Below are positions 24,001 to 27,000 of a DNA stretch of 64,000 bases, in pieces. How positions within the stretch are numbered: the first letter of the stretch is position 1; the number at the start of each line of letters is the position of its first letter. Source of the stretch: Escherichia coli (GTDB taxonomy: Bacteria; Pseudomonadota; Gammaproteobacteria; Enterobacterales; Enterobacteriaceae); the NCBI RefSeq assembly GCF_003991155.1, contig NZ_CP031293.1; one strand, 5' to 3'. Made by a program: the position numbers.

Positions 24001-27000
24001 ACGCGAATTTAACTGTGTCGCGACCAGAGCATCAAGTTCACCTTCCTTGACCTTGTGAAATGCAGCGCTGGCGTTATCGACTTTTATCCACTCTACCTCC
24101 GGATACATCTCTTTTAATTGCGAATGAAGCTCATAATAATATGGAATGGCAACTTTCATTCCTTTTTTTAATGTTTGTTCACTGTCAGGCGCTTTTTGCA
24201 TGACAAAAACGTAAGGCGTTGTTATGAAGGCTTCAGCAAATGAAACATTATTTTCTCGATCTTCACTATAAATAGCGGCGGGCAATATATCCCATCCACC
24301 GGGGTTAAGCTGTGTCCCAGCATGAATATTGTGTGAAACGGTGATCGGAGAAAAATTTAAACCTGTTTGCAAGGTAATAATATTAAGAATATCACCCATC
24401 ACGCCCCGAACTGAGCCAGTTTCATCTGTCATAGAATAGGGTGGCGAGTAAGGATTTTCCAGCACCTTTAAATCGGGATGCTGCTTAATCCACTGTTTTT
24501 CATGTTCAGTGAGTTCTAATGGTTTGTTCAGAAAGGCCAGGTTTCCTGTATCAAGCCAATTTTGTGATACTTCATAGCGAACTTCATTTGTTAAAGCATC
24601 AACAAATCGATTGAGTACTTCATTAAGAACGATTGAATCTTTTCTGGTTAATAAAAAGTTATATTGACGCGGTGAGTTATAATACTTCACTACATTTAAG
24701 GAGTGAGTAAAATAACGGGAAATCATACTGCTGGTAATGATGTTACTACCAATAAAGTAATCATTCTGTCCGGCTGAGACGGATGCTAATGCCTGATATA
24801 AATTTGTAAAAGAGATAATTGTTGCTTTTGGAAATGATTGATGAATTACCTCGTCTGGGGGATAATTTGCTACTCGAGCAATATTTACTGGTTTTGATGA
24901 GGTAAGCGGTCGCATTGAATCGTGAAGGGTAGTGACCAACGCAGGAAAGGTAATTATCAGAGGATTAGTTGCAGCAATGTCATCATTAAGAGGCGGCGAA
25001 GCAACTAAATGTGATAACACTATATCAACTTCACCGTCTTCCAGCGCGTCCATTGCTTTTTGATGATCTGCGTATTCCCGGAGTGTTAATTTGATATTTA
25101 ACGCTCTTTTTAAAAGATTTAAATAATCAGCATTAATACCACGAATCCGTTGCTGCGAATCGGTATGCAACAACGTAGCTGTTTGGGACTTGTGTACTGC
25201 AATCACAAGATTTTTTTTGCTCGCGAGCCAACGTAATTCCTTGTTGCTCAGACGTAGTGGATCAAGTGTGACACGGTTGTTACTACTGATGCCACGATAT
25301 TCGATGTAATCTCCGTCTGCGAAACTTATGGTCGACCAAAGACCACAACAGAGAAGAAAAATATAGGGTAAAAACTTCATGTGGTTAGCCGATTTTGTTA
25401 CGTTGTGCGAATGTGTAAAGATCCATCAGTGATTTGCATTCTAATTTTTCCATCAAGCGACTTTTATACGTGCTGACAGTTTTGTTGCTGATGAACATTT
25501 TTTCAGCAATGTCATTATTATCCTTGCCATCAAGAATATACCGCATGACACTAATTTCTTGTTTCGATAAGGAGTCGAGTTTTTGCTGGTCGGACGTTAA
25601 ACTTCCAACAAACCGGTTGAGAGAGAAGGGGAAATAGCAGTAGCCATTTTTTGCAGCTTCAATAGCCGCAATGATATTGTTCATGCCTTCTTTTTTACTC
25701 ACGAAACCATTAGCGCCAGCATCAGCACAATGTTTCCCGTAAAAATGGTCATTTTTAGCGGAGACGATAATAATAATTCCGCTATATTGACGCTTCCTCA
25801 GCGTTTCTAACACCTGGATACCGTTAACTCCGGGGATATCGACATCAATGATGACGATATCAGGCTTAAGTGTTTCCACCCGCTGAACGGCGCTTCCGCC
25901 TTCAGTCAACTCTGCTAAGATTTCAATATCGTTTTTGATCAATAAATTACGAATTGCTGCGATAGCAAGAGGATGGTCATCAATAATTATTGCGTTCATA
26001 GATTATTCCCTTTGCAATGAAGCATTTCCCTTCTCCCTGTAGTAATACAGACATAAGGCATCATCTCATTTTCTCAATAAAAATAAGAAAATTTGAGCTT
26101 CCTTTAAGATAATTCGACAAGTATACCATATAAATAGTCGGCATAAATAAAATGTCAACAATAAAATCAGGGATGATACCGATGATTTATAGTTTCACAT
26201 TAGCACTATAAGTCTTCTCACTAATCCTACAGGCGTAAGAATTGTATTGCAAAAGCTACGGTTTAGTCCTCTGTTGTTTCTTTTGCACCTCATTTAAATT
26301 AGGCCTCCAACGTTCCTGGGATAATGTGCAACACATGCACTGTGTTTGATATGAAGAATGAATACTCTTTTCATTCAATTCATAAATTTCATCTATGCGA
26401 AATGAGAGATAATAGTGGAACAGATTAATTCAAATAAAAAACATTCTGACAGAAGAAAATATTTTGCTTTGTTAGCGGTGGTTTTATTTATTGCGTTTTC
26501 AGGTGCCTATGCCTATTGGTCAATGGAATTAGAAGACATGATTAGTACAGATGACGCCTATGTCACGGGGAATGCAGATCCAATTTCTGCACAAGTTTCA
26601 GGCAGCGTCACTGTCGTTAATCATAAAGATACGAACTACGTTCGACAGGGTGACATTTTAGTCTCACTGGATAAGACTGATGCCACTATCGCACTCAATA
26701 AAGCTAAAAATAATCTGGCCAATATTGTTCGGCAAACGAATAAACTGTACTTACAGGATAAACAATACAGTGCCGAAGTCGCTTCAGCACGTATTCAGTA
26801 TCAACAATCTTTAGAAGATTATAACCGTCGTGTACCTTTGGCGAAGCAGGGGGTTATTTCAAAAGAAACGCTGGAGCATACCAAAGATACGTTAATAAGT
26901 AGCAAAGCGGCATTGAATGCCGCTATCCAGGCTTATAAAGCGAATAAAGCTTTGGTAATGAACACACCATTAAACCGTCAGCCACAAGTCGTTGAAGCGG

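What the first reader, a model, noticed from the sequence alone, without database searches (positions are those of the whole stretch)
26224..26241. EvgA-box-like palindrome in the evgA-emrK divergent promoter region
ATCCTACAGGCGTAAGAA lies about 175 bp upstream of emrK and about 225 bp upstream of evgA, positioned to mediate autoregulation and emrKY activation.
Basis: partly seen in the sequence, partly recalled or inferred. Interest (0 to 1): 0.25.

Follow-up and report, generated by a model that had tools for sequence, protein, structure and literature searches.

The report
Known EvgA operator between evgA and emrK

Summary
The window is E. coli. ATCCTACAGGCGTAAGAA lies at 26224-26241, 174 bp before the emrK GTG and 225 bp from the evgA ATG, as reported. 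As a palindrome it is weak: 5 of 9 pairs are complementary, as in 5.5% of all 18-mers in the window. Its significance is the match to the EvgA half-site TTCYTACA, with one mismatch per half. Only three sites in the 64 kb match the full consensus within 2 mismatches (0.04 expected). The other two lie upstream of yfdX and frc, both EvgA targets. A consensus-free comparison picks the same 18-mer as the element the spacer shares with the safA, ydeP, frc, yfdX and yegR upstream regions. A RegulonDB-derived EvgA matrix in a paper supplement is reproduced exactly by seven K-12 sites, one of them the reverse complement of this box. The box is identical in K-12 and UTI89, and the 40-mer around it occurs in 5397 of 5426 complete E. 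coli genomes. It is retained, closer to consensus, in two diverged evgA-emrK loci. Held papers state that EvgA binds this spacer, activates emrKY and autoregulates evgAS. The verdict is already known and low interest. The exact geometry relative to the promoters remains inferred.

The parts
26224..26241 (.). EvgA box: 18-bp imperfect inverted repeat ATCCTACAGGCGTAAGAA (reverse complement TTCTTACGCCTGTAGGAT)
   Evidence: Sequence. Two mismatches to TTCYTACANNTGTARGAA. Rank 3 of 63,983 with a leave-one-out matrix. Identical to K-12 L003 13514-13531. It is one of the 7 sites that reproduce the RegulonDB-derived matrix.
26224..26231 (+). evgA-side half-site ATCCTACA (1 mismatch to TTCYTACA)
26234..26241 (-). 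emrK-side half-site TTCTTACG, read on the - strand (1 mismatch)
   Evidence: Five of the six EvgA promoters compared have GTAAGA in the gene-proximal half; yegR has GTAGGA.
26242..26253 (+). Conserved flank TTGTATTGCAAA next to the box. It contains the candidate -35 hexamer TTGCAA (26247-26252) of an EvgA-dependent emrK promoter (inferred).
   Evidence: The longest invariant run in the spacer is 26235-26248, and the best conserved 18-column windows are 26235-26253. C+9 and A+10 are invariant in six EvgA promoters. Coordinates.
26270..26275 (+). Candidate weak -10 TCTGTT of the EvgA-dependent emrK promoter (inferred; alternative TTTAGT at 26262-26267). It is in register with the shared T+26 C+27 .. 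A+30 T+31 T+32 element.
   Evidence: No TSS data were available, and the sigma-70 scan found no canonical promoter here.
26415..29116 (+). emrK (26415-27578) and emrY (27578-29116), the activated efflux-pump operon
21787..25999 (-). evgA (25385-25999) and evgS (21787-25380). EvgA has Response_reg and GerE (LuxR-type HTH) domains.
26186..26191 (-). Candidate -10 TATAAA of a box-proximal evgA promoter (inferred). It lies in the invariant block GAAACTATAA and reads TATAAT in L008.
26123..26158 (-). Box-distal evgA promoter: -35 TTGACA at 26158-26153, and annotated K-12 TSS equivalent at 26123 (124-nt leader). The box centre is at -109.5 relative to this TSS.
   Evidence: The leader sequence in the supplement of PMC11052181 maps. 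TTGACA-19-TATATG is listed as a constitutive evgA promoter in PMC3946193. Coordinates.
26346..26374 (+). Literature-predicted constitutive emrK promoter TTGATA-17-TTTCAT, about 126 bp (to the centre of the element) to 150 bp (to the TSS it implies) downstream of the box centre
   Evidence: PMC3946193 table; coordinates
25996..26025 (-). evgL-like 9-codon leader ORF (MLHCKGNNL) whose stop overlaps the evgA ATG
   Evidence: K-12 annotation b4781; translation
16233..16250 (.). Perfect EvgA box TTCTTACAGTTGTAAGAA, 250 bp upstream of frc (yfdW). Same regulon, same window.
   Evidence: PMC3720670 states that EvgA binds inverted repeats at yfdX and yfdWUVE.
15204..15259 (.). Two EvgA boxes upstream of yfdX: 15204-15221 (1 mismatch) and 15242-15259 (3 mismatches), centres 38 bp apart

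Best explanation
This is the known operator of the response regulator EvgA in the E. coli evgA-emrK divergent control region. On mild acid and alkali-metal signals the sensor kinase EvgS phosphorylates EvgA. EvgA is a NarL/LuxR-type regulator with a receiver domain and a GerE helix-turn-helix domain. An EvgA dimer binds the two inverted half-sites (ATCCTACA and TTCTTACG, separated by 2 bp). It activates transcription of emrKY rightwards and contributes to positive autoregulation of evgAS leftwards. Shown here: the sequence, its statistical specificity, its sharing with the other direct EvgA promoters, its membership in the curated site set, and its conservation. Taken from the literature: EvgA binding to this spacer and its regulatory outcome. 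Inferred only: the geometry. On the emrK side the box abuts a weak -35-like TTGCAA and would be centred near -49.5 relative to a weak promoter laid out like those of safA, ydeP, yegR, frc and yfdX. On the evgA side it would be centred near -53.5 relative to a conserved TATAAA, and it is 109.5 bp upstream of the annotated TSS.
For: Identity and context: the window is 100% identical to E. coli strains, with evgA and emrK annotated on either side.

Specificity: three hits within 2 mismatches against 0.04 expected, all three upstream of EvgA-regulon genes. The box ranks 3rd of 63,983 with a matrix trained without it.

Consensus-free test: 18-mers at 26224-26243 recur best in the safA, ydeP, frc, yfdX and yegR upstream regions. 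Summed Hamming distances are 20-22, against a mean of 33.8 (sd 2.8) and shuffled minima of 25-29.

Curated status: the RegulonDB-derived 'evga' matrix (7 sites) in the PMC4344238 supplement is reproduced with zero difference by seven K-12 sites, including TTCTTACGCCTGTAGG.

Conservation: the 40-mer occurs in 5397 of 5426 complete E. coli genomes, with at most one mismatch in nearly all. The box is identical in the window, K-12 and UTI89 while the flanks vary. L007 carries TTCCTACAGGTGTAAGAA (0 mismatches) and L008 carries TGCCTACACGTGTAAGAA (1 mismatch) at the same position, although spacer identity to L008 is only 66%.

Protein: EvgA has Response_reg and GerE domains.

Literature: PMC5573083, PMC8350985, PMC9496106, PMC8174306, PMC11644481, PMC3720670, PMC4283999.

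Geometry: five columns are invariant in six box-anchored promoters.
Against: The primary binding experiments (Tanabe 1998, Kato 2000, Masuda and Church 2003, Itou 2009) are not in the held library. The claim that this exact 18-mer was footprinted or shifted therefore rests on reviews, on the reconstructed matrix and on my memory.

No TSS data exist here for emrK under inducing conditions. The sigma-70 scan found no canonical promoter next to the box. The candidate -10 on the emrK side (TCTGTT) lacks the key A at position 2.

The annotated evgA TSS is 109.5 bp from the box centre, which is far for direct activation.

The spacer is AT-rich (GC 0.33 against 0.476 for the window) and is flagged as H-NS bound, so relief of silencing may contribute.
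Confidence: 0.92

Rival explanations
1. The box serves emrKY only. evgAS autoregulation is indirect or uses another element, because the evgA promoter that is actually used is too far away.
For: The box-to-promoter layout shared by the safA, ydeP, yegR, frc and yfdX promoters is present only on the emrK side. The annotated evgA TSS puts the box centre at -109.5, and that promoter has a perfect TTGACA and is listed as constitutive.
Against: PMC5573083 states that EvgA binding upstream of evgAS regulates both operons, and PMC11644481 reports positive autoregulation. A conserved TATAAA (TATAAT in L008) lies 33-38 bp from the box on the evgA side, inside the invariant block GAAACTATAA. No second EvgA-type site exists in the spacer.
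Confidence: 0.15
2. EvgA bound at the box acts mainly by displacing H-NS from an AT-rich, horizontally acquired spacer rather than by contacting RNA polymerase.
For: Spacer GC is 0.33, and evgAS-emrKY GC is 0.40-0.43, against 0.476 for the window. The emrK-evgA spacer is marked H-NS in the PMC3946193 table. The candidate promoter elements next to the box are weak.
Against: The fixed spacing between the box and conserved downstream positions in six promoters points to a stereospecific contact rather than mere displacement. No experiment available here separates the two, and they are not mutually exclusive.
Confidence: 0.2
3. The box is a chance match, or a site for another GerE-family regulator such as RcsB, NarL or GadE, and not an EvgA site.
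For: Palindromy alone is at chance level. Several GerE-family proteins recognise half-sites containing TAAGA or TCCTA (from my own knowledge, not tested here).
Against: Expected chance hits are 0.04 per window. All strong matches fall upstream of EvgA-regulon genes in two genomes. The site set reconstructs the RegulonDB-derived EvgA matrix exactly. The box is conserved, with consensus-improving substitutions, in diverged loci.
Confidence: 0.02

Closest known systems
EvgA binding sites of E. coli K-12 (the RegulonDB EvgA site set: ydeP, safA-ydeO, yfdX (two), frc/yfdW, yegR, emrK/evgA)
   Same: The sequence is identical to the K-12 emrK/evgA site. It has the same 8-2-8 inverted half-site layout, TTCYTACA NN TGTARGAA. 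It occupies the same position in the same spacer. It contributes to the published matrix.
   Different: Nothing substantive. It is the weakest full site of the set except the second yfdX site: 2 mismatches, with G at position 8 and a central CC. The window strain differs from K-12 only in the flanks.
BvgA operators of Bordetella (inverted TTTCCTA heptads)
   Same: EvgS is described as the closest E. coli homologue of BvgS, with the same domain organisation (PMC5573083). From my own knowledge, the BvgA heptad TTTCCTA resembles the EvgA half-site TTCYTA, and BvgA also autoregulates its own operon.
   Different: From my own knowledge, Bordetella promoters use a primary site plus cooperative lower-affinity dimers extending towards -35. 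Here only one full site is detectable in the spacer. This was not tested with Bordetella sequences.
NarL/LuxR-type (GerE HTH) response-regulator operators, such as the NarL 7-2-7 sites
   Same: The protein has a receiver domain plus a GerE domain, and its nearest non-EvgA solved relative is NarL. A dimer binds on inverted repeats separated by 2 bp.
   Different: The half-site sequence differs. From my own knowledge the NarL heptamer is TACYYMT with TAC at the outer ends, whereas EvgA has TAC at the inner ends.

Membership tests
EvgA box (direct EvgA operator) | 18-bp inverted repeat made of two TTCYTACA half-sites separated by 2 bp | tested here: met
   ATCCTACA / TTCTTACG, one mismatch each. 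All invariant matrix positions shown (T5 A6 C7, T11 G12 T13 A14, G16) are satisfied in the TTCTTACGCCTGTAGGAT orientation.
EvgA box (direct EvgA operator) | Located upstream of an operon induced by EvgS/EvgA | tested here: met
   It lies in the emrK-evgA spacer. emrKY induction by EvgSA is reported in PMC4283999 and PMC8350985.
EvgA box (direct EvgA operator) | Member of the curated set of experimentally supported EvgA sites | tested here: met
   The RegulonDB-derived matrix (PMC4344238 supplementary file 25) is reproduced with zero difference only if TTCTTACGCCTGTAGG is the seventh site.
EvgA box (direct EvgA operator) | Shared with other direct EvgA promoters, without assuming a consensus | tested here: met
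   It is the best recurring 18-mer of the spacer in five other regulon upstream regions, beyond all shuffled controls.
EvgA box (direct EvgA operator) | Bound by EvgA in vitro (gel shift or DNase I footprint) | not testable with these tools
   Only secondary statements were available: PMC5573083, PMC8350985, PMC9496106, PMC8174306. The primary papers are not held.
EvgA box (direct EvgA operator) | Mutation of the repeat reduces EvgA-dependent induction | not testable with these tools
   This needs an experiment. From memory it was done for ydeP and b1500-ydeO, and I do not know of it for emrK.
EvgA box (direct EvgA operator) | Conserved at orthologous loci | tested here: met
   Present in 5397 of 5426 E. 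coli genomes. Retained in L007 and L008 with changes towards the consensus. More distant EvgA-like loci (66-71% identity) show only single half-sites, about what chance gives.
Operator of a NarL/LuxR-type response regulator | The cognate regulator has a receiver domain plus a GerE-type HTH and is encoded nearby | tested here: met
   Pfam Response_reg E = 1.5e-27 and GerE E = 2.8e-22. Solved EvgA structures are 5F64, 8ZWN and 3F6C.
Activator site at a fixed promoter position (class I/II type) | Defined distance from the box centre to the transcription start | tested here: inconclusive
   Six promoters share fixed positions downstream of the box, which suggests a centre near -49.5. No TSS data were found, the candidate hexamers are weak, and an alternative -10 (TTTAGT) would give -41.5.

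The most novel reading that the evidence does not exclude
A single EvgA dimer site may sit almost symmetrically between two back-to-back activator-dependent promoters: emrK with the box centre near -49.5, and a box-proximal evgA promoter with the box centre near -53.5. All direct EvgA promoters may share a rigid downstream layout (C+9 A+10, T+26 C+27, A+30 T+31 T+32 counted from the box edge). That layout would define an EvgA-specific promoter geometry, or a third half-site-like element (RTCYTAT), that may not have been described explicitly.
Probability: 0.2. Interest if true: 0.3.

Novelty: already known. Interest (0 to 1): 0.07.

Why it matters
It matters little as a discovery. The site is a textbook part of the EvgS/EvgA acid- and drug-resistance circuit and is already in regulatory databases. 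The check does show that the first-stage reader can recognise a genuine operator from raw sequence. It also confirms that this strain carries an intact, K-12-identical control element for emrKY and evgAS. The one modestly useful by-product is the fixed box-to-promoter layout shared by the direct EvgA promoters, which could guide mapping of the induced emrK and evgA start sites.

Tried and rejected
1. Primary papers (Masuda and Church 2002 and 2003, Ma 2004, Kato 2000, Itou 2009, Zhang and Wang 2023) could not be retrieved. Footprint coordinates therefore could not be compared.

2. A full-text search for the box sequences themselves found no paper. Searches for 'EvgA box' and for the consensus strings found only secondary mentions. 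Two broader searches were uninformative.

3. TSS datasets gave nothing for this purpose. Conway 2014 has no held supplements. Kim 2012 lists no TSS for emrK, ydeP, safA, yegR or yfdX, and lists only an antisense start inside emrK assigned to evgA.

4. The sigma-70 and terminator scan of the spacer found no canonical promoter flanking the box.

5. A search for extra EvgA half-sites or a second box in the spacer found none beyond chance. The exception is TTACTACA in the evgA leader, which I did not interpret as an operator.

6. Distant EvgA-like loci (Hafnia, Klebsiella, Enterobacter, Buttiauxella; 66-71% identity) show single half-sites only, about the chance expectation. I rejected them as evidence.

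7. The 3-mismatch hit at 41055-41072 lies inside a 2639-aa ORF (UpaE-like by its position against the IAI39 annotation) and was treated as chance.

8. Palindromy as such was rejected as evidence.

Full report
**Observation**

The window sequence at 26224-26241 is ATCCTACAGGCGTAAGAA, as reported. The flanking ORFs are evgS (21787-25380, -), evgA (25385-25999, -), emrK (26415-27578, +, GTG start) and emrY (27578-29116, +). A 601-bp query across the spacer is 100% identical to several E. coli chromosomes, including IAI39 and CE10, where the genes are annotated as evgA and emrK. It matches 5398 of 5426 complete E. coli genomes. The box ends 174 bp before the emrK start and begins 225 bp from the evgA ATG.

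**Is it more than chance?**

As a palindrome, no. Only 5 of 9 symmetric pairs are complementary, and 5.5% of all 18-mers in the window reach that level.

As a match to the EvgA half-site, yes. The halves read ATCCTACA and TTCTTACG, each one mismatch from TTCYTACA. With TTCYTACANNTGTARGAA and up to 2 mismatches, the 64-kb window has three hits against 0.04 expected, and none of 100 shuffles reached three.

By the IAI39 annotation, the other two hits lie upstream of yfdX (15204-15221) and frc/yfdW (16233-16250, a perfect match). A held paper says EvgA binds inverted repeats at these two promoters (PMC3720670).

I first took that consensus from memory, so I tested it in two independent ways.

- **Consensus-free comparison.** For every 18-mer of the evgA-emrK spacer I summed its best Hamming distances to the K-12 upstream regions of safA, ydeP, frc, yfdX and yegR. 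The best three 18-mers are 26224-26243, with sums of 20-22. The mean is 33.8 (sd 2.8), and the minima in 20 shuffled controls are 25-29.
- **Published matrix.** The supplement of PMC4344238 holds a MEME-format 'evga' matrix (7 sites, width 17) built from RegulonDB sites. The seven K-12 sites I had located reproduce its sixteen printed rows with zero difference. They are ydeP, safA, yfdX, a second yfdX site, frc, yegR and emrK/evgA. Removing the emrK/evgA site forces the missing site to be TTCTTACGCCTGTAGG, which is the reverse complement of the window box.

The box is therefore one of the curated EvgA sites. A matrix trained on the five other full sites ranks it third of 63,983 window positions, behind only the frc and yfdX boxes.

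**Conservation**

- The 40-mer 26213-26252 is found in 5397 of 5426 complete E. coli genomes. It is exact in 2301 records and has 95-99% identity in 3102.
- In the window, K-12 and UTI89 the box is identical, and all substitutions fall in the flanks.
- A scan of species-representative genomes with EvgA returned two diverged loci with the same divergent emrK-evgA arrangement.
  - L007 is an Escherichia record with EvgA 98% identical. It carries TTCCTACAGGTGTAAGAA, with no mismatch.
  - L008 is a contig labelled Yersinia vastinensis with EvgA 94% identical. It carries TGCCTACACGTGTAAGAA, with one mismatch.
  - Both boxes sit at the homologous position, although the spacer is only 85% and 66% identical to the window.
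- The longest invariant run in the true spacer is 26235-26248. The best conserved 18-column windows are 26235-26253, covering the emrK-side half of the box plus the adjacent TTGTATTGCAAA.
- More distant EvgA-like loci (Hafnia, Klebsiella, Enterobacter, Buttiauxella) show only single half-sites, about what chance gives.

**What the literature held here says**

- EvgA binds the region upstream of evgAS and thereby regulates both that operon and the divergent emrKY (PMC5573083, citing Tanabe 1998 and Kato 2000).
- EvgA binds the emrKY promoter region directly (PMC8350985; PMC9496106; PMC8174306).
- Phosphorylated EvgA positively autoregulates evgS and evgA (PMC11644481).
- An EvgA binding site is found in all genes known to be directly regulated by EvgA (PMC4283999).

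The primary papers are not held. My recollection is that Masuda and Church 2003 found an 18-bp inverted repeat in six upstream regions and showed gel shifts. That is memory, not a tool result, although fit it exactly.

**Mechanism**

EvgA has a receiver domain and a GerE-type HTH. Its nearest solved non-EvgA relative is NarL. A dimer on two inverted half-sites is therefore the expected binding mode; this follows from established knowledge of the NarL/LuxR family. The spacer contains only this one EvgA-type site.

*The emrK side.* I anchored six promoters on their boxes and read towards the gene (safA, ydeP, frc, the proximal yfdX box, yegR, emrK).

- Five columns are invariant: C+9, A+10, T+26, C+27 and T+31. 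Five more are 5 of 6: A+12, A+13, G+19, A+30 and T+32.
- Five of the six have GTAAGA in the gene-proximal half; yegR has GTAGGA.
- I read this as a common promoter layout, with a -35-like hexamer at +6 to +11 and a weak -10 at +29 to +34.
- For emrK these are TTGCAA (26247-26252) and TCTGTT (26270-26275).
- That puts the box centre near -49.5, abutting the -35. It would also explain why the flank TTGTATTGCAAA is conserved.
- This is inference only. The -10 is poor, an alternative (TTTAGT, 26262-26267; TTTAAT in L007) would give -41.5, the sigma-70 scan found nothing canonical, and no induced TSS data were available.

*The evgA side.* The layout is different.

- The annotated K-12 leader (supplement of PMC11052181) starts at window 26123. 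It is preceded by a perfect TTGACA (26158-26153), which is listed as a constitutive promoter in PMC3946193. This puts the box centre at -109.5.
- A conserved TATAAA (26191-26186, TATAAT in L008) lies closer to the box, inside the invariant block GAAACTATAA. It could be the -10 of an EvgA-dependent promoter, with the box near -53.5.
- The spacer is AT-rich (GC 0.33 against 0.476) and is marked as H-NS bound. Relief of silencing may therefore contribute.

**Comparison and verdict**

The feature is the K-12 emrK/evgA EvgA operator, base for base. Every membership feature that could be tested here is met. In vitro binding and mutational tests cannot be done with these tools. The feature is already known and of low interest. 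The only open point is the exact promoter geometry, which a 5'-end mapping experiment under EvgS-activating conditions would settle.

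Noticed in passing
window 16233-16250 and 15204-15259: There are three more EvgA boxes in the same window. 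A perfect one lies 250 bp upstream of frc. Upstream of yfdX there is a strong box plus a weak one, with centres 38 bp apart. The weak, gene-proximal yfdX box, not the strong one, is in register with the promoter layout shared by the other EvgA promoters.
   Followed up: partly
window 26242-26275, and K-12 loci L002, L004, L005: Six direct EvgA promoters share invariant positions at fixed distances from the box edge (C+9 A+10, T+26 C+27, T+31). The +25 to +32 element (RTCYTATT in safA, ydeP and yegR) also resembles an EvgA half-site. It could therefore be a -10 region or a third half-site.
   Followed up: partly
window 25996-26025 (-): The 9-codon leader ORF evgL (MLHCKGNNL), annotated in K-12 as b4781, is intact here. 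Its stop overlaps the evgA ATG. It sits in a strongly conserved leader that also holds the GGA motifs reported as CsrA sites (PMC11052181).
   Followed up: partly
window about 26612 (-), inside emrK: Kim et al. 2012 (PMC3415461 supplement) list a K-12 TSS 613 nt upstream of evgA, with 33 reads. It maps antisense within the emrK coding region, after a TATGAT -10. The transcript would read through the whole spacer, including the box.
   Followed up: no
window 26326-26340 (+): A short hairpin, GTGCAACACATGCAC, is followed by TGTGTTTGAT. It lies between the box and the emrK start, inside the putative long emrK leader (1 found against 0.2 expected). It is conserved within E. coli but not in L008.
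   Followed up: no
L008 (NZ_CACVAF010000001.1, labelled Yersinia vastinensis), 1449-3615: A 590-kb contig labelled Yersinia carries an emrK-evgA pair with EvgA 94% identical to E. coli and an EvgA box at the homologous position. This suggests horizontal transfer of the whole module, or a mislabelled record.
   Followed up: no
L012 (Rhizobium cauense, 398-bp contig): A 398-bp contig in a Rhizobium assembly encodes the first 114 residues of EvgA at 100% identity. This is probably E. coli contamination of that assembly.
   Followed up: no
L006 4887-4904 (K-12, inside mdtE) and L006 2569-3366 (gadE upstream): A 2-mismatch EvgA-box-like sequence, TTCTTACGCATGAAAGAA, lies inside the mdtE coding region. 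The gadE upstream region, which a review says EvgA binds directly, has no match within 3 mismatches.
   Followed up: no
window 41055-41072: TTCCTGCAGTTGCAGGCA is the fourth-best matrix score in the window (3 mismatches). It lies inside a 2639-aa ORF (36377-44296, UpaE-like by position against the IAI39 annotation) that is intact here but truncated next to an IS3 element in IAI39. The match is probably chance.
   Followed up: partly
window 21787-29116: The evgAS-emrKY block has GC 0.40-0.43, against 0.476 for the window. About 20 matches to the spacer fall on records labelled plasmids in the E. coli collection. Both points are compatible with a horizontally acquired, H-NS-targeted module.
   Followed up: no
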